Of a stretch of DNA of 32,000 nt, positions 2,680 to 30,043 are shown one piece after another. Source of the stretch: Crocosphaera subtropica ATCC 51142 (GTDB lineage: Bacteria > Cyanobacteriota > Cyanobacteriia > Cyanobacteriales > Microcystaceae). The notes beneath the pieces are model-generated. The model had not been told where the DNA came from and did not search any database. It saw nothing but the letters and a program-made list of their open reading frames with translations. The translations under genes were made by a program, and so were the position numbers. Where the stretch lies: the NCBI RefSeq assembly GCF_000017845.1, contig NC_010546.1, forward strand, positions 3,390,001 to 3,422,000, written 5' to 3'. Within the stretch, counting starts at the first letter, position 1; each line of letters starts with the position of its first letter.

Positions 2680-2700
2680 CAGGGTAAGCTCATCTAAAAT
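2680..2700. repeat. IS terminal inverted repeat (left)
   Basis: Perfect 21-nt reverse-complement match to 4019-4039. Confidence 0.9.
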
Positions 2701-3910
2701 CCGCTTGACAGAAGGAATTGAGAACAGTCATCATATAGTTGTTGTTCATAGCAGCTTGCTTCATTTTCTGGCGAAGACTACGTTTAAATGTTTTTTCTTG
2801 ATGGAGAACATTAAGAGCCAATCGTCTTAGAAGAGCAAAGTTCTGTGGACTATATTCTGACCGAATACGGCATTGATCTTCAGAAAAAGTGACATCGAGT
2901 GTCCAATGAAGGTTATTCTCAATGCTCCAATGGGTGCGGATCGCATGGCAAAGGAATTGGGCATTGGGAGGTAAAGAGGTCAGATAAAACTGAATATCGT
3001 GGGTAGTCTTGTTCCACAAGTGACGGATGCGTTCGACTACGACAATAGTTTGCAGTCCATGCCATTGTTGTTGCTGGTAAAGCTCTCCCATAGCTGCTAC
3101 TGGTATAGCCCAAACGTATCGTTTCTCGGTGCGGTGGTGGCCCTTGGTTACACTTTTGTAGTAATCATGTTCAATGCCATCCCAGCCATTGTTTTGGGTA
3201 TCAGTAAACCATTGCTTGACTTGAGAAAATAAAGTAGGATGGTTAGCTTTGAGAGTAACAATGTAGTCAGCTTTTTGCCGACAAATTTGTTGGATAATGC
3301 TGGTTTGAGTTCCCATTGCATCAATGGTAATGATCGAGCCTGTAATGTCTAATAGTTCGAGTAAGGCAGGAATGGCCGTAATTTCATTGGAGTAGTTTTC
3401 AACTTTGACTTGTCCTAACACCAGACTCTGCTGGGATGCCCACGCTGTGACCGTATGTAAAGCGCACTGTCCGGCGTTGCGATCGTAAGAACCCCTTAAT
3501 GTTTTGCCATCGATGGGGATAATTTCTCCTTGAATTGAATTCATTATAGATTGAACCCATTTTTGTAGGCATTTTTGCAGCGATTCTGGATCAATTCTCT
3601 CAAAAACTCTTCTAAATGTGTCATCACTCGGGATTCCGTGAGGGAGTTCTAGAAACTCTGATAACCACTCCTGTTTTGCGATACCATAGTTCTCCATATC
3701 TTCCCAACCTTGGGACCCTGCAATGACTGCCAATATAGCGATCGCCAATACATCTTTAAGGAGGTGTTTTTTGCTTCTTTGTACTCTAGGATCTTCTATT
3801 TCTTTGACATAGCCTAATAAATTGTTTTGGATTTCATCAATAGATGCTATATTTCCCTTTTCCTTTTTTTTCTTACTAGATTGTTTTTGGTCTGCAAACC
3901 CCTTGGCCAT
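2690..3910 (-). CDS. ISAs1-family (H-repeat-associated type) DDE transposase
   Basis: The N-terminal DPRVQRSKKHLLKDVLAIAILAVIAGSQGWEDMENYG, the IDAMGTQ motif and the C-terminal HWSIENNLHWTLDVTFSEDQCRIR are hallmark motifs of ISAs1-family transposases. Confidence 0.85.
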   Translation of the reverse strand: MAKGFADQKQSSKKKKEKGNIASIDEIQNNLLGYVKEIEDPRVQRSKKHLLKDVLAIAILAVIAGSQGWEDMENYGIAKQEWLSEFLELPHGIPSDDTFRRVFERIDPESLQKCLQKWVQSIMNSIQGEIIPIDGKTLRGSYDRNAGQCALHTVTAWASQQSLVLGQVKVENYSNEITAIPALLELLDITGSIITIDAMGTQTSIIQQICRQKADYIVTLKANHPTLFSQVKQWFTDTQNNGWDGIEHDYYKSVTKGHHRTEKRYVWAIPVAAMGELYQQQQWHGLQTIVVVERIRHLWNKTTHDIQFYLTSLPPNAQFLCHAIRTHWSIENNLHWTLDVTFSEDQCRIRSEYSPQNFALLRRLALNVLHQEKTFKRSLRQKMKQAAMNNNYMMTVLNSFCQADFR

Positions 3911-4018
3911 GTTCTGATTCCATAATTACGAAAGTCCTAATTGTACTTTGTTTTTTTATTTTAAGTCCCTTTTTGCCTCACCTAGACTTTACTTTCTTAG
4001 TCAAGTACATTTTATACC

Positions 4019-4039
4019 ATTTTAGATGAGCTTACCCTG
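4019..4039. repeat. IS terminal inverted repeat (right)
   Basis: Perfect 21-nt reverse-complement match to 2680-2700. Confidence 0.9.
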
Positions 4040-5650
4040 GTTGCTGGTGCATATGATCAACATAAATACGAAATTATTGATGGACAACAAAGAATTGCTA
4101 CATTTACTTTATTAGTTGCTTGTTTAATTAAGTCTTATAAAACTTTAGAATTAGATACTAAAAAATCAGGTGATAATAAGAATTTGAAAATCATACAGAA
4201 ACGACATCAAGAATTATTTAGTAGATTTATTGAATTTGAACAAGAAATCCAAAGGCCATTCTCGTCTGTAGAAGTCTTGACACTATCAAAAGCAGATCAT
4301 TCTTTTTATAGTAATTTAATTCGTGATCTTCATCCTGAACCTTCAAGAGATTCACATAAAAAAATGTTATCTGCATATAAAAAAATGAATGAAACATTAA
4401 TATCAATTATGGAGCGATGTACTAATATTGAAGATAAAATAGATGATCTTGAAGTTATTCAAAAAATTTTAGATAATGACTTTACAGTATTACACATGGT
4501 CACAGATAAAAAAGAAGATGCTTTTAGATTATTTCAAGTGATAAATGATAGAGGGACAAATCTTACTGATGGAGATTTATTAAGAGCTAAAACTTTAGAA
4601 CTTTTGGAGCAATTTTATCATGATCAAAGAATTGTTGAAGAAATATGGGATTATATTTTAGCTGACTCTCCTTCAGATACCAGCGATTATTTGAATTGGA
4701 TTTATGATTCTTTTCAAGGAAAGCGACCCAAACAAAATGCTGTGTTTGATATGTTTCTTGATAAATTTTTTCCTGAACATAACAAAACTGATTTACAGGA
4801 AGAAGATGCAGAAAAAATTAGAAAAATGATGCAAGATATAAAAGAATATATTATTAGATGTAGAAAGTTAGTACAAGGACAATGGTTATATCCAGATAAG
4901 CAACCACTAACTGCTTGGGATAGAACTCGTTTAAATCTTGTCATAGTTGAACTTGGTCATACGCTATCCATTCCATTATTGCTTTCAGCATCCCAATTAG
5001 ACGATAAAAAATTTTCAGAAATCGTTCAAATGGTAGAGAGAACATTTTTTAGATATAAATTAGTTTGTAATGAGCATATAACTCCTTTAAAAAATATTTA
5101 TTCACAAGAAGCTGTTGCTATACGTAAAAATGCTCAATCTTATAATCCTGAAACTCTTAGAGAAAAATTAAATAATTTAATCCAATCAAAAACATCTGAC
5201 TCAATATTTAAGAATAATTTAAAAAATCTTAAATATCAAGAAACTGGTACGAGTAATAAACCTCTGAAATATTTTTTGATGTCTATTGAATATTATTACC
5301 AATGGTATAGCAATGGGTCAACGGGCAAGCCTCTATGTCTTGATAAAAGTAGAGTTTATGATTTTGCTGGTACATCTATAGAACATATCTATCCTCGAAA
5401 TCCGAAACAGACTGATAAGGATGATCATATTGAACCTATAAAAAATTCACTGGGTAATCTTACAATTATGGATCCTCAACAAAATGGAATAGGTGATAAT
5501 GAACCATTTTTGAGAAAAAAGACACTTTATCAACAGTCATCTGTTTTCTTAAATAAAGAAATAGGGAATAAACCTCATTGGACACTTGAAGAAATAAGCA
5601 ATCATGAAGACTTCCTGATAGATGCTGCTGTTAAAATATTCCGTCCATAA
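4040..5650 (+). pseudogene. GmrSD-like type IV restriction enzyme (DUF262 + DUF1524), 5'-truncated by the IS
   Basis: The frame is open back into the IS right end, and native sequence begins at 4040. The DGQQR motif (4079-4093, ...YEIIDGQQRIATFTLL) is present, but the upstream part of DUF262 is missing. The C-terminal SIEHIYPRNP...NSLGNLTIMDPQQN (EHIYP at 5381-5395) fits the DUF1524 His-Me finger. The TTG at 4184 in the ORF track is not a credible native start. Confidence 0.7.
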
Positions 5651-5694
5651 CATAAAAATTTGAAGCCTAAAAAATTAATTTAAAATCACTTAAT

Positions 5695-5889
5695 ATGATG
5701 AATTACCAAGATATTATCACCATAGAACCTGGAAAACGTAGCGGAAAACCCTGTATTAGAGGGATGAGAATTACTGTTTATGATGTTCTCTCTTATCTCG
5801 CTTCTGGAATGACTTATGAAGAGATTTTAGAGGAGTTTCCCTACCTAACTAAAGAAGATATTTTAGCTTGTCTTAGTTATCAAAAATAA
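5695..5889 (+). CDS. DUF433 domain protein (antitoxin-like), apparently orphan
   Basis: The 64-aa product contains IEPGKRSGKPCIRGMRITVYDVLSYLASGMTYEEILEEFPYLTKEDILACL, which is typical of DUF433. No DUF5615/PIN-like partner ORF follows it. Confidence 0.7.
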   Translation: MMNYQDIITIEPGKRSGKPCIRGMRITVYDVLSYLASGMTYEEILEEFPYLTKEDILACLSYQK

Positions 5890-5966
5890 TAAGTTTATCT
5901 TCAACTATGACTTAAGTGCGATCGCTTATAATAAACCTATCCCCTAAAATAAGTATCAGGAGGAAA

Positions 5967-6383
5967 ATGCCAGCAAAAGACATTTATCATGATGCGGTTA
6001 AAAATGCTTTAATAAAAGATGATTGGACGATTACAGCCGACCCTTATAGAATAAAATATAAAGATGCTGAATTATTTGCTGATTTAGCAGCAGAAAAACC
6101 TATTGCTGCTGAACGCAGTGGACATAAAATAGTTGTTGAAATCAAAAGCTTTTTAAGTCCTTCTCCTATGAGAGATTTTGAAATTGCTTTAGGTCAATAT
6201 ATTTTATATCGAAACTTAATCAATCTTACTGAACCAGAATACCAAATTTATTTAGCTATTAAAGATAGTATTTATGTAAACTTGTTTGAAAGAGATTCTA
6301 TCAAAGACATTACCAAAATAAATAAATTACTTTTAATTGTTGTTGATATGGAACAAGAGGAAATTTTACAATGGATAAACTAG
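5967..6383 (+). CDS. xisH: XisH family protein (fdxN element excision controlling factor-like)
   Basis: The product starts MPAKDIYHDAVKNALIKDDWTITADPYRIKY...VVEIKSF, a typical XisH N-terminus. I chose the ATG at 5967, preceded by AGGAGGA (5958-5964), rather than the GTG at 5916. Confidence 0.85.
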   Translation: MPAKDIYHDAVKNALIKDDWTITADPYRIKYKDAELFADLAAEKPIAAERSGHKIVVEIKSFLSPSPMRDFEIALGQYILYRNLINLTEPEYQIYLAIKDSIYVNLFERDSIKDITKINKLLLIVVDMEQEEILQWIN

Positions 6384-6712
6384 AAAAGTATCGCCAATCT
6401 ATCAAAAAAATTTTAACAGAATACCATGAATGGGTTTCAGGTTCATCCAATTTAACCAGAGAAAGCTGTCTTATTTTTGATGAAGTACATGACCAATATA
6501 TGTGGCTATTTATGGGATGGGAACGAAAGAAAAAAATTAGAAATATTCATGTTCATATTCGTATAAAAAATGACAAAATCCACATAGAAGAAGATTGGAC
6601 AGAGGAAGGTATCGCTAATGAGTTATTAAGAGAAGGTGTCCCCAAAGAAGATATCGTTTTAGCTTTTTATGATCCCGAAACTCGTAAATATACAGACTTT
6701 GCTACAGCTTAA
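6371..6712 (+). CDS. xisI: XisI family protein
   Basis: MDKLEKYRQSIKKILTEYHEW...HIRIKNDKIHIEEDWTEEGIANELLREGVPKEDIVLAF matches XisI. The ORF overlaps xisH by 13 nt, the usual paired arrangement. Confidence 0.85.
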   Translation: MDKLEKYRQSIKKILTEYHEWVSGSSNLTRESCLIFDEVHDQYMWLFMGWERKKKIRNIHVHIRIKNDKIHIEEDWTEEGIANELLREGVPKEDIVLAFYDPETRKYTDFATA

Positions 6713-21785: not shown

Positions 21786-22406
21786 TTACTTTAATTGTGC
21801 TACTTGAAAAATGGTATCAGTCGTTAATTCCAGTTCAGGAAAGATACTTGATTTTAAGCGATCGCCTTTAACATACTTTTCCATCTGATATTCCCCTTCA
21901 ATTAACTGACAGATGGTAATCGTTGGTTGCTTGGGTTTACCAATATGACGAACGGCCCCTACACCCCGATAATCAACAATCCAATATTCAATAATTCCCA
22001 TGGCTTCATACTCAACAAATTTATGGCCATAATCATCTCGCCAGTTCATACTAACCACTTCAATGACCAAGGGAACCGTCTGACTATTTTGAATCACTGA
22101 TAATTTTTCCCACAGAGGTTCATTTTTGAGATGTTCTCGATTAATAACGGCTACATCGGGGAGGTATCCAGAACGAGGGGCAAGGGGTTTGATTAGACAG
22201 TTTTTAGGAATAGAATAGGGCAGATTTTGTTTACGAATTTCTAAGTTTAATTCTGCAATCAAAAAACCACTAATGTCTTCATGAGAACCGGTGGGAAGCA
22301 TTTCAACTATTACACCTTCAATTAATTCATAGGTTTTTTCATTTTCTGGATACCATTCTAGAAACTCCTCAAAACTTATCGGTTGAATTTGTAGGTTTGT
22401 AACCAT
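21786..22406 (-). CDS. Uma2-family (DUF820) restriction-endonuclease-fold protein
   Basis: EFLEWYPENEKTYELIEGVIVEM, YLPDVAVI and PLVIEVVSMNW form a PD-(D/E)xK-like arrangement typical of Uma2. Confidence 0.8.
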   Translation of the reverse strand: MVTNLQIQPISFEEFLEWYPENEKTYELIEGVIVEMLPTGSHEDISGFLIAELNLEIRKQNLPYSIPKNCLIKPLAPRSGYLPDVAVINREHLKNEPLWEKLSVIQNSQTVPLVIEVVSMNWRDDYGHKFVEYEAMGIIEYWIVDYRGVGAVRHIGKPKQPTITICQLIEGEYQMEKYVKGDRLKSSIFPELELTTDTIFQVAQLK

Positions 22407-23473: not shown

Positions 23474-25504
23474 TTATGTTGTCTCCTGAGACTTTAATTC
23501 ATAGCCTTCTAAGATTAAATTATTTTCTTTTAAACAGTCTAACCATCCTAACAACCGGTTGACTTTACGATAGTCATCTAATAATCCTAATTCTTGTTCT
23601 TTTTCCGTTAACTGTTTAAAGGTTTCATGCAAAGGGTAATCAGGAGACACTAAACTATCTTTATAATGTAAAATGGGGGGGTTATCATCCTCTGCATAAT
23701 CAGAATAATTAACTCGTAAATTGCTTAATTGAATTTGCATCCGACTATGAAGACGGGGATGAGCATTATTATCAAAATCGGGATAAAATAGATAAGTAAT
23801 CTTAGGAATACGCCAAGAAAATTGGATAACATTGGCTTCTTCTAATCGTCCCACCGTACGACTGGCGCAACCTTCATATAAACGCAATAAAGGTTCTAAA
23901 GTTTCTAAAACACTAATATGAACGAGGAGAGAATTTTTCAGTTTTCTGCCAATGGTTTGCTTTTGACACAGTTGGGCAATAATTTCTAAATTTCCGACTT
24001 GGTATAACATAGCATCAGCCATGATACAAGCACTATTATAACTGCCAAATAATGACTTAATATCTTGTTTAACTTCTGGGGATAATTCCCGCATTTTTGG
24101 ACGGCGATCAAATTGACTTAAGGCCAAATATAATAATAAATCTTGACGACGTTTTTCTGTAATCATATCCCAATCATCTTCTTGAGTAACTTGTAAAATA
24201 ACCTTAAATGCTTGGCGGAAACTTCTAAATTCTTCTTTTAATGCTACTTCATTTTTTAGTTCTCCTTTAGCTGGTAATCGTCCCCGTTCGGTGTAAAATT
24301 CCATTAAGGGTTGTAGCAAGTATTCATAGTCTTCAAATCGTCTAACTTTGGTGATTAATCTGGGAGTTTTTGCCCTAGAATGGAAGCGAGAGGCACGGAA
24401 TTTTTGCGACTCTAGCTCATCTCGAAACACTAAATAAATACCTAATCCGATGGGTATTGAATCAACCTCTAAAACTTGATCAATATAAAATTTTAGTTCT
24501 TCTTGTTCATAATACTTTTGAAAGGTATTACGATTAGTAATAATCCCATCTCCGTAGGCAATAACACCTCTATCTCGATCATCGATTAAAACCTGTGCAG
24601 AAACAATTAAAACTTTATTAGTTAATTCCCACGCATTTAGTAATGCTTCCCGTCTCTCTTTGATATCTTCAATGACATTAATAACATACCCTAAATTAAC
24701 AATATCGGCGATCGCTTTTTGATTATCGGGACAATAATAAGGGTCCCATCCTTGACTTTTATACCCTGCTTCGGCAATTCTTTCCACATCCCCCCCGTAA
24801 CCGCATCCGTAGTCAAAAAAAGTGGTTTCTTCCTCGAATAATAATAAGTCTAATGCTAAACGAACGGGACGAGATAAGGTATTTCTAACAATAGCGGCTT
24901 TATGTCTTTCTATTTGAATATTAACGGTTTCTTTAGGAAAAATAGGACAATGACACGCCAAATAATGCCCCTCGAAAATAATCCGTTTACGATTTAATCT
25001 TTTTTCCCATTCCTGTTTAGTTCCGATAGGTGCATTTAATGTTAATAATTCTAATGCTTCCTCCATCTTAGTTAAATGGGCAAACATTTCATAATGAGCA
25101 TAATCAGGGGTAATAAAAGTTTCTTTCCTATGAAGAATAGGCGGGTTTCTTTTCTTTTTATAGTCCCAATAACTAACTTGTTCTGTATCCAGATTAATAA
25201 CAATACTTAACGTTAATGCAGGATGAGGATCACTATCAAATTGGGGATAAAATAAATAAGAAATAATGGGCTTATCTGTATTGAATTTTATAATCGTTGC
25301 CCCTTCAATATCTTCAGTTAGTCTGGCTTTTTTTTCGTATTCTTGTAATCTTATGTCAAGACAATTAATGGCACTAACATGAACATATAAAGCCGTGGGT
25401 AACTGTTTACCGATAGAACTTTTTTTACAACAATAAATAATTTCGCTAAAATAATCAGTGGTGAGGAACATAATAGTTTTAAATTTATTCGGATAAATCT
25501 CCAA
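23474..25504 (-). CDS. 676-aa SAM-dependent methyltransferase with duplicated flanking domains; core resembles the 'DNA phosphorothioation-associated putative methyltransferase' family (TIGR04096, from memory)
   Basis: Class-I MTase motif I is FFDYGCGYGGD (24788-24820), with ADIVNLGYVINVIED downstream. A helical region follows (RRQDLLLYLALSQFDRRPK...DIKSLFGSYN). The N-terminal (aa about 18-182) and C-terminal (aa about 504-672) domains are clearly paralogous. An alternative start is the ATG at 25471. Confidence 0.6.
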   Translation of the reverse strand: MEIYPNKFKTIMFLTTDYFSEIIYCCKKSSIGKQLPTALYVHVSAINCLDIRLQEYEKKARLTEDIEGATIIKFNTDKPIISYLFYPQFDSDPHPALTLSIVINLDTEQVSYWDYKKKRNPPILHRKETFITPDYAHYEMFAHLTKMEEALELLTLNAPIGTKQEWEKRLNRKRIIFEGHYLACHCPIFPKETVNIQIERHKAAIVRNTLSRPVRLALDLLLFEEETTFFDYGCGYGGDVERIAEAGYKSQGWDPYYCPDNQKAIADIVNLGYVINVIEDIKERREALLNAWELTNKVLIVSAQVLIDDRDRGVIAYGDGIITNRNTFQKYYEQEELKFYIDQVLEVDSIPIGLGIYLVFRDELESQKFRASRFHSRAKTPRLITKVRRFEDYEYLLQPLMEFYTERGRLPAKGELKNEVALKEEFRSFRQAFKVILQVTQEDDWDMITEKRRQDLLLYLALSQFDRRPKMRELSPEVKQDIKSLFGSYNSACIMADAMLYQVGNLEIIAQLCQKQTIGRKLKNSLLVHISVLETLEPLLRLYEGCASRTVGRLEEANVIQFSWRIPKITYLFYPDFDNNAHPRLHSRMQIQLSNLRVNYSDYAEDDNPPILHYKDSLVSPDYPLHETFKQLTEKEQELGLLDDYRKVNRLLGWLDCLKENNLILEGYELKSQETT

Positions 25505-26156
25505 ACTGTTGACGATATTTTTCTAACATCGATTCCATTTCAGACACCTTTCGTTTTTCCTCTTCTAACTCGGCTTCTTTTTCTTTCAAAGCGGCTGCCA
25601 ACTCTTCAGGAATTAATAATTTTTTTCCTGTATCTTCCCGATAAAAACCAATTAATTGACCTTCAACTTTCAACTGTAGCTGTAACGGTTTACTCCGATT
25701 ATCTTCAATGATTTCATAAACATTATTTCTTAAACGATAACCTATCAATTTTTCGTTAATCCATTCCCCTTTAGGATCAAATAACCAATATTCTTGAACT
25801 CCTAATTGTTCATATAATGTCTTTTTAAATTCTTGATCTTGACTTTTTGTCCCTGGAGAAGTCATCTCAAAAATTACTTGAGGAACCTCTTTTTCTTCCC
25901 ATATTTTATAATTATCCCGTCCCCCCGGTTTCACATTAAAGATTACCATAACATCAGGGGCAACTCGCATTCTAGGAAGTCCTTGACTATAATACACAAA
26001 TTGATTCGCTAATACAGTCGCTTGTTGTCCCGATAAATACTGTTTTAGCACTTCTAACGTGGTTAAAATAGCATATAAATGAATATAAGTTTCTGCCGCA
26101 GGTTCACCGTCTGAACTGGGATAAATAATATCAGTTTTAGAAACTGCTTCTAACAT
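25485..26156 (-). CDS. Uma2-family (DUF820) nuclease-fold protein with a C-terminal coiled-coil tail
   Basis: YPSSDGEPAAET, APDVMVIF and PQVIFEMTSPGT are Uma2 motifs, followed by an E/K-rich helical tail. The 3' end overlaps the downstream methyltransferase ORF by 20 nt. Confidence 0.8.
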   Translation of the reverse strand: MLEAVSKTDIIYPSSDGEPAAETYIHLYAILTTLEVLKQYLSGQQATVLANQFVYYSQGLPRMRVAPDVMVIFNVKPGGRDNYKIWEEKEVPQVIFEMTSPGTKSQDQEFKKTLYEQLGVQEYWLFDPKGEWINEKLIGYRLRNNVYEIIEDNRSKPLQLQLKVEGQLIGFYREDTGKKLLIPEELAAALKEKEAELEEEKRKVSEMESMLEKYRQQFGDLSE

Positions 26157-26294: not shown

Positions 26295-26579
26295 ATGAAT
26301 GATCGTAAAAAACGTATTCTCGAACACTTAAAACAGAGTACCAACGGAACGCAATATATTTCACCTAAAAATACCTCTAACCCAACACCAACCCCTCCCC
26401 CTACTCCTGAACCGATTCCTGAACCTAAACCAGTGTCAAAGCCCACTCTAAAAGAAGACCGCAAGCAAAAAATCATGGCCCATGTGAACACCAGTAGCCA
26501 AAACTTTGGTAGCTTCTCTCTAAAAGATGATAGCAAGAAAAAGAAAATTGAGGAACATATCCGCAAAAGTTTAAGTTAA
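26295..26579 (+). CDS. hypothetical 94-aa protein with three basic repeats and a Pro/Thr-rich linker
   Basis: The repeats are RKKRILEHLKQS (aa 4-15), RKQKIMAHVNTS (aa 56-67) and KKKKIEEHIRKS (aa 81-92), plus a PTPTPPPTPEPIPEPKP linker. The overlapping minus-strand ORF (26264-26566) looks like its antisense shadow. Confidence 0.5.
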   Translation: MNDRKKRILEHLKQSTNGTQYISPKNTSNPTPTPPPTPEPIPEPKPVSKPTLKEDRKQKIMAHVNTSSQNFGSFSLKDDSKKKKIEEHIRKSLS

Positions 26580-26615: not shown

Positions 26616-26734
26616 CAACTTCTATGATTTCTGTGTATTCAAACTCATTAGACATCTCCAAGAATCCATAACCCAGTTACAGCAATGAAAACAGGCAGAT
26701 TAAACTTGAAGTCAAAATTAGCCTTCAGAACGAA

Positions 26735-27779
26735 TTAATAAGGGGTTGAAGGAATTAACTCTAATTTGGACATAAAACTATGGCTCATTATAACGTCAAT
26801 TACCTCTCCAGATTGGGAGGATTCTATTATTTTCAAAATCAAGGAACTAATTCTCAACCGAACTAATCCACAAACGGTTAACAAAACCGATTTATATCGA
26901 CTCTTATGTAAGCGAAATCTTTCTTGAACTACTTTAAATACTTTGACAACTCGAATTAAATGCTCAACAAAAATCCGATTAGATGATAAAGCTTTATTTT
27001 CTTTTATTTGAGCTTCAGTTAATTCTCTTTTCTTAGTTTTTTTATGCGGAGTGATAATTTGAGTCTCTCCAATGTAGGCTTTATCAGCACTAAAAGTTTG
27101 GTTTATCTTGAATTTATTTAAAGTTTGCCGACAGATGTTAATGTCACTTGTCGGCCCAGGTTTTCCAATTACTACATCAATAATATCTTCAGCTTTTGGC
27201 AAGACAACGAATTGACTTTTTAAAGTATGTCTTTTCTGCTTACCCTGTCTCTTGGTGCGCGTTCCCTAGGCGATTACGAATCGCCGGGGTCGCACCGCAA
27301 TAATATTTTTTTTGTTCTTGATAATCTGAAGGTCTTTCAATAGCCTGTTCTGCGCTGTCTACAATCAATTCATAATCAGTTAACATTTCAAGAACTATTT
27401 CTTTTTCTTCTTGAAACTTTTTTATTTGTTCTAATAAACTTGGTGGTAACTCTCCTTCAAAAAGTGTTTGCCAATAAGTAAAAATATTATGAGCCGTTGA
27501 CTCACTTACTTGAAAAAGTAGTCCTAAGAGTTGAAAACTTATATTATGTCTTAAATAAACTAACGTTAGAACAATTTGTTCTTCTTCTGCTAATAAAGAT
27601 GGACTTCCCGCACCAGGTTGATTAATTCTAATTTTTGTTTTTTCGTTCTCTTCTTTTTTTTTCTGATGAAGAAGCTTCCCTAGAGCAATCAATTGTTCCA
27701 ATTGATTGTCATCAATTCCTAATAATCTTTTGGTTTGTTTAGGATATTTTTTTAGATAGCTCCAAGTGTAAGTTTCCAT
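26735..27779 (-). pseudogene. IS5-family DDE_Tnp_4 transposase split by a 52-bp insertion
   Basis: The N-terminal part (27297-27779) has an HTH_Tnp_4-like LTLVYLRHNISFQLLGLLFQVSESTAHNIF and IVDSAEQAIERP. The C-terminal part has GKQKRHTLKSQFVV..., ADKAYIG and RIFVEHLI. Removing 27245-27296 joins ...QKKYYC to GKQKRHTLK... as one 330-aa frame. Confidence 0.75.
27245..27296. other. 52-bp GC-rich three-tier hairpin insert inside the transposase gene
   Basis: GGTGCG (27254-59) pairs with CGCACC (27291-96), CCC (27264-66) with GGG (27286-88), and GGCGATT (27269-75) with AATCGCC (27279-85). I count 33 of 52 bases as G/C, within much more A+T-rich flanks. The length is not a multiple of 3, so it causes a frameshift. 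Confidence 0.6.
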
Positions 27780-27806
27780 TCTTTTTTGAACTAATTATTC
27801 ATTTTA

Positions 27807-29873
27807 TTATACTATATTTCTTGATTTTATTAAATTATGGAGATGTCTATTAGGACTTTGTTTAACTAAAGGATAATTAACGCCATTCAAAAAAATATTA
27901 TCTTGTTGACAGTCAGGTTTCGGGGAATAATAGACTAAAACATATTCTTTTCCAATATAATTATTGGTTTCTGCTTGGACTTCACCCCGCCATTGTGTTT
28001 TTGTTACTAAAATAATTAATTGATTGGCTAATTTTGGGATTGATTTTGCCACTTGTCTACGATAAATCTCATCTAAACTACCAAAGGGAGAGTCCATCAC
28101 AACGGGAAAGGTACTACTATCGGGTCCCATTAAGGTATTTTTATGACTCCAGTTTCTCACACTATCAATAATTCCCCCAATAAACGAAAGGCTTAAAATT
28201 TGATTTTCCCCTGTTGACGCTGCTACAGGAACAGCTATTCCTGATGTATTTTCAATCAAGTTTAACTCATAATTTTGGGTTAATCGAGGAATATAAGGTG
28301 TAAAAGAAATATCACAAAAAATAGCTTGAACTCGTTTTTCTAAAGAGAGACGAAATTGTTTTTCTAGACGAATTCTAACTTCAATGAGTCGTTCTCTTGA
28401 TTCTTTGGCTGCCTCACTTCTCCGTTTAGCTAAGATTTGCTTTTCTTCTTTTAGTTTCTGTTTAGCAATGTCTTTATCTAAGGTTTCTATCTGTTTTTGT
28501 AAAGTGGTTAATTGTTGTTGAATTCCCCCTTGTTCTAATTGTAATTCCCGAATTATTTGATTAATTTTATCTAAATTTTCTTGTAGGTTTCTGATATCAG
28601 CATCAGGATAATTGCGAAACTTTTGATTAATGTCATCTAGTTCCACTTCAACCCTAGATAATTCTAATCGAGATTGTTCAAGTTTGGCTTGTTTTTCATC
28701 TACATTTTCCCAAAAAGTAATCACTTTTTCTTCCATCTCATTCACTTGAGATTCTAAGCGAATAGCTGATTCTTCTATGGCTGCTATTCCTGCTTTATCC
28801 ATCCATTGTTTAACTTGTTCGTAATAATGATTTCCCTCGATTAATTCTTGGCCACAAATACAGCTTTTACGATTTAATAATTGTTGCACAAATTGTTGTT
28901 TAATTCCACTGGGTAACTCTCCCCGTTGACGTAAATTAGTGATAATTGTGTTAAATTTAGGGATAACATTACCCAAAAATATTAAGTAACCTTGATTAGA
29001 AATAAACTGTTTAATTTGTCGTTTTAATTCTCTGATTTCCTTTCTTAAGTTTGATTCTTGTTTTTCGAGTTTAATTTTCAGATTTTTTAATTGTTCGTTA
29101 CTGCTTAAAGTGATCAAATTTTCTGAAATTTCTTTTTGCTGTAACTCTTGAGAGTTTATAGTTTCTATGATATTTTTCTTTTTATTTTGTAACTTTTCTT
29201 GCTCTTGTTCTAATTTTATTTTATCTTTAATCTTTTTTTTGATGTTAACATCTCCAATAATTTTTAGTTCTTCTTCTAAGGTTTTTTCTGCTTTTTTTAG
29301 ATGTTCAATAGAACGATCTAACACTTTTACACCTAACAGTTCTTTTGTATCTTCAGCAATACGACTTTTATCATTACTACGAAAAATATGGTCAATATGT
29401 TCTCCATCAAAAAAGAAATATTGATGTAAACTTTTGGGTAAAATACGGTTAATAATATCATCAGGTTGTTGCGAGGGAGGATACCAGCGACCATCTTCTT
29501 CCGCCACCAACATATAAAATTTATTTTCGCTGTATTGAATCGTACCATTTTTATCTAAACAAGCATAACATTTTCGTTTAACTTGATAGTGTTTATGTTC
29601 ATGTTCAAAATAAATTTCCACCCAACACTCCACTGATGTTCCTATATCAGCTTGCATAATGGCACGCTTATTAATTAAGAGTTCAGGAGAGGTAAAAGCA
29701 GCCGTAAATTCTTCATATAACACCCAGGTAAAAGCATTTAATAAGGTGGTTTTTCCAGACCCGTTATTACCGTGAATAATAGTGGTATTTTCCTTACCAC
29801 AGGCTAAGCTAATTTCTGGAGTTTGACCATAAAACTGTCTAAAATTACATAATTTAATCGATAATAATTTCAT
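27807..29873 (-). CDS. DndD-like SMC/Rad50-type ABC ATPase (AAA_23-like); last ~17 codons are IS-derived
   Basis: Walker A is GNNGSGKTT (29745-29771). YFFFDGEHI is at aa 152-160. A K/E/Q-rich coiled-coil region of about 330 aa has a central SCICGQEL (aa 337-344). The signature STGENQILSLSF (aa 553-564) and Walker B FPVVMDSPFGSLDEIYR (aa 589-605) follow. The frame runs into the IS right end at about 27860. Confidence 0.8.
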   Translation of the reverse strand: MKLLSIKLCNFRQFYGQTPEISLACGKENTTIIHGNNGSGKTTLLNAFTWVLYEEFTAAFTSPELLINKRAIMQADIGTSVECWVEIYFEHEHKHYQVKRKCYACLDKNGTIQYSENKFYMLVAEEDGRWYPPSQQPDDIINRILPKSLHQYFFFDGEHIDHIFRSNDKSRIAEDTKELLGVKVLDRSIEHLKKAEKTLEEELKIIGDVNIKKKIKDKIKLEQEQEKLQNKKKNIIETINSQELQQKEISENLITLSSNEQLKNLKIKLEKQESNLRKEIRELKRQIKQFISNQGYLIFLGNVIPKFNTIITNLRQRGELPSGIKQQFVQQLLNRKSCICGQELIEGNHYYEQVKQWMDKAGIAAIEESAIRLESQVNEMEEKVITFWENVDEKQAKLEQSRLELSRVEVELDDINQKFRNYPDADIRNLQENLDKINQIIRELQLEQGGIQQQLTTLQKQIETLDKDIAKQKLKEEKQILAKRRSEAAKESRERLIEVRIRLEKQFRLSLEKRVQAIFCDISFTPYIPRLTQNYELNLIENTSGIAVPVAASTGENQILSLSFIGGIIDSVRNWSHKNTLMGPDSSTFPVVMDSPFGSLDEIYRRQVAKSIPKLANQLIILVTKTQWRGEVQAETNNYIGKEYVLVYYSPKPDCQQDNIFLNGVNYPLVKQSPNRHLHNLIKSRNIV

Positions 29874-30043
29874 TGAATCACTTCTTTAATAATTTGAACG
29901 ATATCATCATTAATATTTCGAGGCGATCGCAAAGATAACTTACTTTTTTCTAAGGATAAAACTCTTTCGATAATCTGATAGATTTCAGGGGGTGCGGTGG
30001 TAATGGGTTCTTGAACTTGACTAACATTAACTTCTTCATTCAT
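29870..30043 (-). CDS. unlisted 57-aa ORF translationally coupled to the DndD-like ATPase
   Basis: The product reads MNEEVNVSQVQEPITTAPPEIYQIIERVLSLEKSKLSLRSPRNINDDIVQIIKEVIQ. Its TGA overlaps the ATPase ATG as ATGA (29870-29873). It is too short for the supplied ORF track, and I do not recognise a family. Confidence 0.4.
   Translation of the reverse strand: MNEEVNVSQVQEPITTAPPEIYQIIERVLSLEKSKLSLRSPRNINDDIVQIIKEVIQ

What the first reader, a model, noticed from the sequence alone, without database searches (positions are those of the whole stretch)
23474..26156. Uma2 nuclease-fold gene overlapping a 676-aa methyltransferase whose MTase core is flanked by two paralogous unknown domains
Seen in the sequence: the Uma2 ORF (25485-26156; APDVMVI...VIFEMTSP) overlaps the ATG at 25504 of the 676-aa ORF by 20 nt. 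If the ATG at 25471 is used instead, there is a 13-nt gap. Either way the two genes form an operon. The large protein has a class-I SAM-binding motif FFDYGCGYGGD (24788-24820). Its N-terminal block (aa about 18-182, nt 24959-25453) and C-terminal block (aa about 504-672, nt 23489-23995) are clear paralogues. They share EII..., VH.S, YLFYPxFDxxxHPxL, NPPILH(R/Y)K(E/D), PDYxxHExF, LTxxExxLxLL and ILEGYxL in the same order. Established knowledge, from memory: the central MTase and the following helical region (RRQDLLLYLALSQF...DIKSLFGSYN) resemble TIGR04096, the 'DNA phosphorothioation-associated putative methyltransferase' family. That family has no demonstrated function. Inference: a PD-(D/E)xK-fold protein coupled to a DNA-modification-type MTase looks like a restriction-modification or toxin/immunity pairing. 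The duplicated domain, with its conserved D/H/K/E positions, could be a dimer-mimicking DNA-reading or catalytic module.
Basis: partly seen in the sequence, partly recalled or inferred. Interest (0 to 1): 0.75.

Follow-up and report, generated by a model that had tools for sequence, protein, structure and literature searches.

The report
Phosphorothioation-associated methyltransferase beside an unrelated Uma2 gene
The large gene is an already-catalogued but functionally unstudied methyltransferase family that travels with bacterial DNA-sulfur (phosphorothioate) modification genes; its duplicated flanking domain is real, widespread and of unknown fold, but the neighbouring Uma2 nuclease-like gene is not its partner.

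Summary
The window is Crocosphaera subtropica ATCC 51142. The ORFs are cce_3305 (Uma2) and cce_3304. RefSeq already names cce_3304 a 'DNA phosphorothioation-associated putative methyltransferase' (TIGR04096, 850 bits). The two flanking blocks are true paralogues (38% identity, E=4e-36).

The restriction-modification or toxin/immunity reading is not supported.
- Uma2 sits upstream of the methyltransferase only within the genus Crocosphaera.
- In cyanobacteria generally, Uma2 genes are enriched just downstream of PbeC-type ATPases (14 of 44 dereplicated loci against a 3.8% background). A PbeC gene, clipped by an IS element, lies 1.65 kb upstream here.
- The catalytic core has no DNA-methyltransferase motif IV. 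It resembles small-molecule and RNA methyltransferases.

The repeated 'X' domain:
- The C-terminal copy belongs to the family model.
- The N-terminal copy comes from one old duplication and is present in 85 of 150 sampled family clusters.
- It folds confidently (pLDDT 94) but matches no Pfam family and no PDB structure.
- It also occurs as a standalone protein in a 485-kb phage.

Relatives sit in dndBCDE operons, beside sspBCD, or next to DndH-like genes. Best reading: an accessory, probably DNA-directed methyltransferase in a decayed phosphorothioation-related island. Its substrate is unknown.

The parts
23474..25471 (-). Methyltransferase CDS, 665 aa from the ATG at 25471 (cce_3304 / WP_009547927.1). 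The GenBank model starts at the TTG at 25504 (676 aa). Long-form TIGR04096 member.
24938..25471 (-). N-terminal copy of the uncharacterised 'X' domain (aa 12-189 in 676-aa numbering). Signature NPPILHRKE at 25121-25147.
24380..24916 (-). Conserved ERHKAAI..LSRPVRLAL lead-in plus the class-I Rossmann methyltransferase core. Motif I FFDYGCGYGGD at 24788-24820, GWDP at 24740-24751, GYVINVIED at 24665-24691, TFQKYYEQEEL at 24494-24526.
24005..24379 (-). All-helical region with two weak HNH_repeat-like units (RGRLPAKGEL..., ...SLFGSYNSAC).
   Evidence: PF18780 below cutoff in 13 of 36 members
23477..24004 (-). C-terminal copy of the X domain (aa 501-676). This copy is included in the TIGR04096 profile.
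25485..26156 (-). Uma2-family (PD-(D/E)xK-like) gene cce_3305 with a coiled-coil tail. Probably a PbeC-neighbourhood passenger, not a methyltransferase partner.
26295..26579 (+). Conserved 94-aa gene on the opposite strand with a threefold (K/R)KKRI.EH.K motif. It separates PbeC from the Uma2/methyltransferase pair.
26649..27849 (-). IS element with HTH_Tnp_4 and DDE_Tnp_4 ORFs at 27240-27779 and 26735-27202. Inverted repeats at 26649-26671 and 27827-27849. It is inserted into the 3' end of pbeC.
27807..29873 (-). PbeC-type (CxC) ABC ATPase. Its native last 14 residues are replaced by 13 IS-derived residues.
29870..30043 (-). 57-aa ORF overlapping the pbeC start (ATGA), in the PbeB position. 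Conserved at -1 of PbeC in 64 of 80 loci.

Best explanation
cce_3304 is a long-form member of the catalogued but uncharacterised TIGR04096 family. This is a SAM-dependent methyltransferase that accompanies DNA phosphorothioation (PT) machinery: Dnd, Ssp and DndFGH- or Pbe-type modules.

Anatomy: X domain, conserved lead-in, class-I Rossmann core, two helical HNH-repeat-like units, X domain.

Inferred mechanism: the X domains and helical units place the catalytic core on DNA. Each X domain is a compact alpha/beta core followed by a helix-helix-helix-hairpin that looks like a winged helix. The two X copies in one chain would do what a dimer of the short ~480-aa form does. The methyl acceptor is not a canonical exocyclic-amino or C5 base position.

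The upstream Uma2 gene is not a cognate nuclease. Uma2 genes recurrently follow PbeC ATPases in cyanobacteria. The stretch 23.5-30.0 kb is a decayed PT-related island: PbeA and PbeD are absent, and PbeC is clipped by an IS. The methyltransferase was juxtaposed with it in the Crocosphaera lineage.

Shown: family membership, domain duplication, distribution, gene contexts and lack of DNA-methyltransferase motifs.
Inferred: DNA as the substrate, the X domain as the DNA-binding or reading module, and the pseudo-dimer logic.
For: Membership: 849.6 bits to TIGR04096; RefSeq gives the same name.

PT linkage of the family:
- dndA/dndBCDE followed by the methyltransferase, which overlaps dndE.
- Methyltransferase directly upstream of dndBCDE, with a DGQHR gene nearby, on a Pseudoalteromonas megaplasmid.
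- PAPS-reductase / two hypotheticals / FtsK(DndH-like) / methyltransferase in Azospirillum.
- sspC-sspD-GmrSD island.
- DndB-like contexts.
- sspB-sspC-sspD next to the methyltransferase in 9 of 80 cyanobacterial loci from at least 7 genera.
- Synechocystis pSYSM orthologue within 10 kb of DUF4007 and a cysteine desulfurase.

X domain:
- Paralogy E=4e-36.
- 85 two-copy and 63 one-copy proteins among 150 cluster representatives.
- N copies group with N copies and C with C, indicating one old duplication.
- Model pLDDT 94, pTM 0.88.
- Standalone X protein in a 485-kb phage, two genes from a class-I methyltransferase that aligns weakly to this core.

Uma2:
- Adjacency to the methyltransferase is confined to Crocosphaera.
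- Uma2 at +1/+2 of PbeC in 14 of 44 dereplicated clusters, against 16 of 426 background ORFs, binomial p=2e-6.
Against: - No dnd or ssp gene lies in this 32-kb window.
- About 85% of the cyanobacterial long-form loci sit among ordinary genes and are syntenic within clades. This cyanobacterial subfamily may therefore have a role independent of PT.
- The core resembles small-molecule and RNA methyltransferases, not DNA methyltransferases.
- DNA binding by the X domain is inferred only from the order of secondary-structure elements. Foldseek found no PDB match at all, not even a winged-helix protein.
- In Synechocystis 6803, which carries a 52%-identical orthologue, all five methylome motifs are assigned to other enzymes.
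- Uma2 shows weak residual enrichment at +/-1 of the methyltransferase: 5 of 43 clusters against about 2 expected.
Confidence: 0.55

Rival explanations
1. Uma2 (nuclease) and the methyltransferase form a two-gene restriction-modification or toxin/immunity operon.
For: Same strand with a 13-nt gap. The pair is conserved in 8 Crocosphaera-clade loci. Uma2 models appear in PADLOC candidate-defence sets PDC-S03 and PDC-S17. Uma2 is slightly over-represented at +/-1 of the methyltransferase: 5 of 43 clusters against about 2 expected.
Against: - Upstream, same-strand Uma2 occurs in only 2 of 43 dereplicated methyltransferase clusters. The other adjacent Uma2 genes are downstream and belong to different subfamilies.
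- The methyltransferase occurs in thousands of genomes without Uma2.
- It has no DNA-methyltransferase catalytic motifs.
- Uma2 follows PbeC far more consistently.
Confidence: 0.05
2. The cyanobacterial long form is a vertically inherited housekeeping or regulatory methyltransferase. It would act on RNA, protein or a small molecule, and its occasional PT neighbours would be a legacy of the family's origin.
For: - The nearest structures are O-, N- and S-methyltransferases for small molecules, plus CmoA, Trm9 and Hen1. Methyltransf_23 is the only Pfam methyltransferase family hit by many members (14 of 36); Rsm22 and AdoMet_MTase are hit by 2 each.
- All 80 best genome hits are two-copy, almost all labelled cyanobacterial (one MAG is labelled Tatlockia and several only 'uncultured bacterium'), at 55-63% identity outside Crocosphaera, with clade-level synteny next to RibD-like deaminase-reductase, a purine/uridine-phosphorylase-like protein and similar genes, identified from sequence only.
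- The Synechocystis methylome has no unassigned motif.
Against: - Recurrent sspBCD adjacency across at least 7 cyanobacterial genera.
- The gene is plasmid-borne in Synechocystis, Trichormus, Picosynechococcus, Pseudanabaena and Leptolyngbya, which is atypical for housekeeping genes.
- A phage encodes a standalone X domain.
- HNH-repeat-like and winged-helix-like elements suggest nucleic-acid binding.
Confidence: 0.22
3. The X domain is itself catalytic, for example a phosphoesterase or nuclease using the conserved His/Lys/Glu/Tyr set. The protein would then be a bifunctional modification-plus-cleavage enzyme.
For: Residues conserved across both copies: H29 invariant and, at 90% or more, H113, K115, E44 and Y126 (A2 numbering); H82 is invariant within A2 but replaced in the phage homologue. 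One-copy versus two-copy forms recall enzymes that build one active site from two halves.
Against: There is no match to any nuclease or hydrolase fold or family. H82 and P109 are not conserved in the phage homologue. After the duplication, the C copies of two-copy proteins diverged markedly, which is more typical of binding modules.
Confidence: 0.1

Closest known systems
TIGR04096 / NCBIfam 'DNA phosphorothioation-associated putative methyltransferase'
   Same: Full-length match at 849.6 bits. Same lead-in motif, Rossmann core, helical region and C-terminal X domain. RefSeq gives it the same name.
   Different: It carries an extra N-terminal X copy that the 478-position profile does not cover. 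This long form is nevertheless common: 85 of 150 sampled clusters. Here it lies beside PbeC/Uma2 rather than dnd or ssp genes.
PbeABCD / CxC-ABC-ATPase systems (Xiong 2019, PMC6459918; re-annotated in PMC10853773)
   Same: The neighbour at 27807-29873 is PbeC (PADLOC E=1e-297), with a small upstream ORF in the PbeB position. Published CxC systems sometimes recruit methylases.
   Different: PbeA (HKD-helicase) and PbeD (DndE-like) are absent here, and PbeC is clipped by an IS. The published associated methylases are cytosine C5/N4 enzymes, not this family. The methyltransferase lies within 5 genes of PbeC in only 10 of 80 methyltransferase loci, and 8 of those are Crocosphaera.
Type II R-M systems (amino-methyltransferase or C5-methyltransferase plus PD-(D/E)xK endonuclease)
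   Same: A methyltransferase gene lies next to a nuclease-fold gene on one strand.
   Different: No motif IV or PCQ. No conserved pairing. The core is closest to small-molecule and RNA methyltransferases.
Sulfur-binding domain (SBD) readers of PT-DNA, as in ScoMcrA and SprMcrA
   Same: A roughly 170-aa module fused to an enzyme and found in PT-related contexts. It is rich in conserved Pro, aromatic, His, Arg and Lys residues. This resemblance is from memory only.
   Different: No structural or sequence match to any PDB entry, which would include solved SBD structures. The fold is mixed alpha/beta.

Membership tests
TIGR04096 (dnd_rel_methyl) | Score above the curated NCBIfam cutoff (150 bits) with end-to-end profile coverage | tested here: met
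   849.6 bits; profile positions 1-476 of 478 map to aa 197-671
TIGR04096 (dnd_rel_methyl) | Intact class-I SAM-binding motifs: motif I GxGxG-like, and an acidic residue at the end of beta-2 | tested here: met
   FFDYGCGYGGD and GWDP are present and invariant in 36 homologues. The Rossmann fold is predicted.
TIGR04096 (dnd_rel_methyl) | Genomic association with DNA phosphorothioation genes | tested here: inconclusive
   No dnd or ssp gene in the 32-kb window; only a truncated PbeC module. Relatives show clear Dnd, Ssp or DndH-like contexts.
Restriction-modification pair (methyltransferase + PD-(D/E)xK nuclease) | DNA-methyltransferase catalytic motif: (D/N/S)PP(Y/F/W) or PCQ...ENV | tested here: not met
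   None of these motifs occurs anywhere in the protein. No DNA-methyltransferase Pfam or structural hit.
Restriction-modification pair (methyltransferase + PD-(D/E)xK nuclease) | Methyltransferase-nuclease adjacency conserved across lineages | tested here: not met
   Upstream, same-strand Uma2 in 2 of 43 dereplicated clusters; the window-type pair occurs only in Crocosphaera.
Restriction-modification pair (methyltransferase + PD-(D/E)xK nuclease) | A sequence-specific base-methylation motif attributable to the enzyme | not testable with these tools
   Indirect only: in Synechocystis 6803, which has a 52%-identical orthologue on pSYSM, all five methylome motifs are assigned to other methyltransferases (PMC6105098).
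Uma2 (PF05685) | Pfam gathering score | tested here: met
   63.9 bits against a cutoff of 27. RefSeq name: 'Uma2 family endonuclease'.
PbeABCD system | All four components present: PbeA HKD-helicase, PbeB small protein, PbeC CxC ATPase, PbeD DndE-like | tested here: not met
   PbeC (E=1e-297) and a small ORF in the PbeB position are present. No PbeA or PbeD was found. The PbeC C-terminus is replaced by IS sequence. Related cyanobacterial loci do carry a PbeA-like helicase.

The most novel reading that the evidence does not exclude
The X domain is a previously undescribed DNA-backbone or phosphorothioate reader fold. TIGR04096 enzymes would then be PT-directed methyltransferases. They would methylate at or next to PT sites, conceivably on the nucleophilic sulfur itself, giving a second-layer modification that tunes or masks PT marks. 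Phage-encoded standalone X plus methyltransferase genes would be a counter-defence version.
Probability: 0.15. Interest if true: 0.8.

Novelty: already known. Interest (0 to 1): 0.4.

Why it matters
TIGR04096 is a large family: 614 clusters at 50% identity with E<=1e-30. It is embedded in Dnd, Ssp and DndFGH-type islands, yet no substrate, structure or phenotype was found for it. Its repeated X domain has no Pfam or PDB relative.

Showing what it methylates would add a missing component to models of phosphorothioation-based defence and epigenetics. Orthologues exist in tractable models: Synechocystis 6803 pSYSM and Cyanothece 51142. That makes the question directly testable.

This locus adds little beyond the family itself, and the proposed Uma2 partnership is not real. 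A side result is that Uma2 genes are preferentially placed downstream of PbeC ATPases in cyanobacteria.

Tried and rejected
- Pfam, NCBIfam and PADLOC scans of the methyltransferase and of the isolated X domain gave only TIGR04096, a weak Methyltransf_23 hit and a weak HNH_repeat hit.
- Profile searches against PDB sequences with the X-domain alignment and the full-length alignment found nothing meaningful.
- Foldseek of the X-domain model against the PDB: best E=0.27. Against BFVD: one real hit, to an unnamed 1232-residue viral protein segment that I could not retrieve.
- I considered an HKD/PLD-like reading of 'HRKE...D'. I rejected it because the spacing is wrong and no PLD fold match exists.
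- Promoter and terminator scans of 22.3-27.9 kb gave counts equal to shuffled controls, so they say nothing about operon structure.
- Literature searches for TIGR04096, the family name, cce_3304/3305/3307 and pSYSM plus phosphorothioate returned nothing functional.
- The phage methyltransferase two genes from the standalone X gene did not pass the cyanobacteria-derived family HMM. It aligns only weakly by BLAST (28% over 102 aa, pairwise E=7e-5), so I treat that link as suggestive only.
- The winged-helix assignment for the C-terminal third of the X domain could not be tested, because no sub-domain model could be searched.
Full report
**1. What is in the sequence**

The two ORFs exist as described.
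- The 223-aa ORF at 25485-26156(-) is a Uma2-family protein (PF05685, 63.9 bits).
- The long ORF at 23474-25504(-) begins with TTG, not ATG.
- The ATG at 25471 gives 665 aa. This is the RefSeq start and the start shared by homologues. The realistic layout is therefore a 13-nt gap.

Exact look-up identifies the source as the chromosome of Crocosphaera subtropica ATCC 51142 (formerly Cyanothece 51142). The methyltransferase is cce_3304 / WP_009547927.1, already named 'DNA phosphorothioation-associated putative methyltransferase'. The Uma2 gene is cce_3305, already named 'Uma2 family endonuclease'.

Motif I, FFDYGCGYGGD, lies at 24788-24820 as stated. The N- and C-terminal blocks are genuine paralogues: 38% identity over 162 residues, E=4e-36.

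**2. Family and domain anatomy**

The protein scores 849.6 bits to TIGR04096 (cutoff 150). The profile (positions 1-476 of 478) maps to aa 197-671. The Rossmann core, the helical region and the C-terminal repeat copy are therefore all part of the family model. Only the N-terminal copy is extra.

An exhaustive HMMER search of 1.84 billion cluster representatives found 3427 clusters at E<=1e-3 and 614 at E<=1e-30. I scanned the best 150 with an HMM of the repeat, which I call X.
- 85 carry two copies (X-methyltransferase-X, about 650-870 aa).
- 63 carry one detected copy: about 50 are C-terminal-only forms (most ~480 aa), 13 have only an N-terminal copy detected, and some are fragments.
- A few are methyltransferase-X-X.

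N copies find N copies as their best hits (83 of 84). C copies find C copies (84 of 88). This indicates one old duplication, not a local event. Single-copy domains are closer to N copies (34%) than to the C copies of two-copy proteins (30%).

AlphaFold2 models are confident for both X copies in the full-length model (mean pLDDT 84.5; blocks above 90). The isolated X domain gives pLDDT 94.1 and pTM 0.88. Its element order is helix, hairpin, two helices, a four-stranded meander, a short strand, then helix-helix-helix-hairpin. I read the last part as winged-helix-like. That is an inference, not a test.

The X domain has no relatives in the libraries searched.
- No Pfam, NCBIfam or PADLOC match.
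- No PDB sequence match even at E<=10.
- No Foldseek PDB match (best E=0.27, TM below 0.25).
- Against viral predicted structures there is one real hit. It is an unnamed 1232-residue segment, E=4e-7, rmsd 1.9 A over 107 columns, covering the alpha/beta core only.

The X domain also occurs on its own.
- It is a 159-aa protein on a Microbulbifer plasmid.

The region between the core and the C-terminal X domain is all-helical. It gives sub-threshold HNH_repeat (PF18780) hits in 13 of 36 homologues.

**3. What kind of methyltransferase**

The core is not a recognisable DNA methyltransferase.
- No (D/N/S)PP(Y/F/W), PCQ or ENV motif occurs anywhere in the protein.
- The only Pfam methyltransferase family hit by many members is Methyltransf_23, weakly, in 14 of 36.
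- Foldseek's best PDB matches (E about 1e-4) are small-molecule O-, N- and S-methyltransferases, CmoA, Trm9, Hen1 and TehB. No DNA methyltransferase appears.
- Synechocystis 6803 carries a 52%-identical two-copy orthologue on pSYSM. SMRT and bisulfite sequencing there found five methylation motifs, all assigned to five other enzymes (PMC6105098).

**4. Is Uma2 a partner?**

I fetched 80 genomic loci of long-form homologues, nearly all from cyanobacteria. I called ORFs and clustered the neighbours.
- The window's Uma2 subfamily lies upstream of the methyltransferase only in 8 Crocosphaera-clade loci, where the methyltransferase is at least 86% identical.
- With an iterated Uma2 HMM, any Uma2 at +/-1 occurs in 14 loci. 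These collapse to 5 of 43 clusters at 85% identity. Only 2 of them are upstream on the same strand.
- Background is 2.3% of ORFs, so about 2 clusters are expected by chance.

I then fetched 80 metagenomic loci around PbeC homologues. These show a conserved module:
- a PbeA-like helicase (PADLOC PbeA E=1e-156);
- a ~60-aa ORF, at -1 of PbeC in 64 of 80 loci;
- PbeC;
- either a Uma2 gene or a DEP-domain protein;
- a 156-aa protein of unknown family.

Uma2 lies at +1 or +2 of PbeC in 14 of 44 dereplicated, informative clusters. Background is 16 of 426 ORFs (binomial p=2e-6).

In the window, PbeC (PADLOC E=1e-297) lies 1.65 kb upstream of Uma2. Two things separate them.
- A conserved 94-aa gene on the opposite strand (26295-26579).
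- An IS element with inverted repeats at 26649-26671 and 27827-27849. It has replaced the last 14 residues of PbeC.

Uma2 is therefore better explained as part of the PbeC neighbourhood. The Uma2-methyltransferase juxtaposition is specific to this genus.

**5. What the methyltransferase associates with**

| Locus (protein form) | Context |
|---|---|
| Metagenomic contig (one-copy) | dndA / dndB-C-D-E followed by the methyltransferase, which overlaps dndE |
| Pseudoalteromonas megaplasmid (two-copy) | Methyltransferase directly upstream of dndBCDE; DGQHR gene nearby |
| Azospirillum plasmid | PAPS-reductase / two hypotheticals / 1771-aa FtsK-domain protein (DndH-like) / methyltransferase |
| Methylibium, Falsirhodobacter plasmids | FtsK-domain neighbour |
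| Metagenomic contig | sspC-sspD-GmrSD(SspE-like) island |
| Metagenomic contigs | DndB-like proteins with helicases |
| 9 of 80 cyanobacterial loci | sspB-sspC-sspD divergently adjacent |
| Synechocystis pSYSM | DUF4007 and a cysteine desulfurase within 10 kb |

The nine cyanobacterial loci are Goleter, Nostoc, Snowella, a Leptolyngbyaceae genome, Mojavia, a Thermosynechococcaceae genome, Egbenema and two Alkalinema. PADLOC confirms SspB (E=1e-123), SspC (E=0) and SspD (E=1e-119).

The remaining cyanobacterial loci sit among ordinary genes with clade-level synteny. This keeps open a PT-independent role for the subfamily. The 32-kb window has no dnd or ssp gene.

The literature offers only a remark that a methyltransferase clusters with dndBCDE/sspB in Fischerella and 'may function independently' (PMC12914056). 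The re-annotation of Pbe as CxC-ABC systems mentions cytosine methylases, not this family (PMC10853773).

**6. Mechanism and confidence**

The most likely reading (0.55) is an accessory SAM-dependent methyltransferase of PT-type DNA-modification and defence islands.
- The X domains and helical units act as nucleic-acid docking or reading modules.
- The two-copy chain imitates a dimer of the short form.
- The acceptor atom is unknown, and canonical base-methyltransferase chemistry is unlikely.

Rivals:
- A non-DNA substrate or housekeeping role in cyanobacteria (0.22).
- A catalytic X domain (0.10).
- The Uma2 R-M or toxin/immunity pair (0.05).

The most novel reading not excluded is that X is a new PT or backbone reader and the enzyme methylates at PT sites (0.15).

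**7. Verdict**

The gene and its family are already catalogued, so this locus is not novel in kind. The proposed Uma2 partnership is not supported. Residual interest lies in the uncharacterised family and its X domain, which matches no solved structure. Both are testable in model cyanobacteria.

Noticed in passing
window 26649-27849 and 27807-29873: An IS element (HTH_Tnp_4 and DDE_Tnp_4 ORFs, 23-nt imperfect inverted repeats TAGACATCTCC...) is inserted in the last codons of pbeC. It replaces the native C-terminal 14 residues (...SPNEFEYTEIIDVGRDN in relatives) with ...SPNRHLHNLIKSRNIV.
   Followed up: yes
L088-L167 (PbeC loci); window 27807-30043: Cyanobacterial PbeC genes sit in a conserved module: PbeA-like helicase, ~60-aa ORF, PbeC, then Uma2 or a DEP-domain protein, then a 156-aa protein of unknown family in the PbeD position with no Pfam or PADLOC hit. 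Uma2 is about four-fold enriched at +1/+2 of PbeC. This Uma2 link appears unreported.
   Followed up: partly
window 26295-26579 (+): A 94-aa ORF has three copies of a (K/R)KKRI(L/E)EH(L/I)K-like motif around a Pro-rich linker. It is conserved on the opposite strand in Crocosphaera and in one Microcystaceae locus (L011). It matches no family.
   Followed up: partly
L171 4944-5516 and about 6108-6635 (uncultured 485-kb phage LR745208.1): The phage encodes a standalone X-domain protein. Two genes downstream is a ~175-aa class-I methyltransferase whose lead-in and motifs align weakly to the TIGR04096 core. This may be a split, phage-borne version of the enzyme.
   Followed up: partly
L168 / L170 (Synechocystis sp. 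PCC 6803 plasmid pSYSM, 17.9-30.2 kb): This model organism carries a two-copy orthologue (WP_011153563.1). It lies in a defence-rich stretch with DUF4007 (SspB-like), a possibly disrupted SspC-like ORF next to a LAGLIDADG gene, a cysteine desulfurase, AAA+DUF4276, HEPN/MNT and HigAB. It was not considered in the published methylome study.
   Followed up: partly
window 2690-6712: A low-GC (~30%) stretch holds a DDE_Tnp_1 transposase, a GmrSD-type (DUF262/DUF1524) restriction endonuclease gene (4184-5650) and an XisH gene (5916-6383) followed by an unscanned 113-aa ORF (6371-6712). It looks like a separate small defence or mobile islet, 18 kb from the finding.
   Followed up: no
window 21786-22406 (-): A second, unrelated Uma2 gene (PF05685 E=5e-34; PADLOC PDC-S03 E=5e-91) lies two genes downstream of the methyltransferase, after a GT2 glycosyltransferase. 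This illustrates how dense Uma2 genes are in this genome.
   Followed up: partly
P0085, P0014, P0021 (~980-1020 aa) and P0181, P0205 (~850 aa): Some family members have a ~290-aa N-terminal extension before the first X domain, or a ~190-aa C-terminal extension after the second. These extra regions were not analysed.
   Followed up: no
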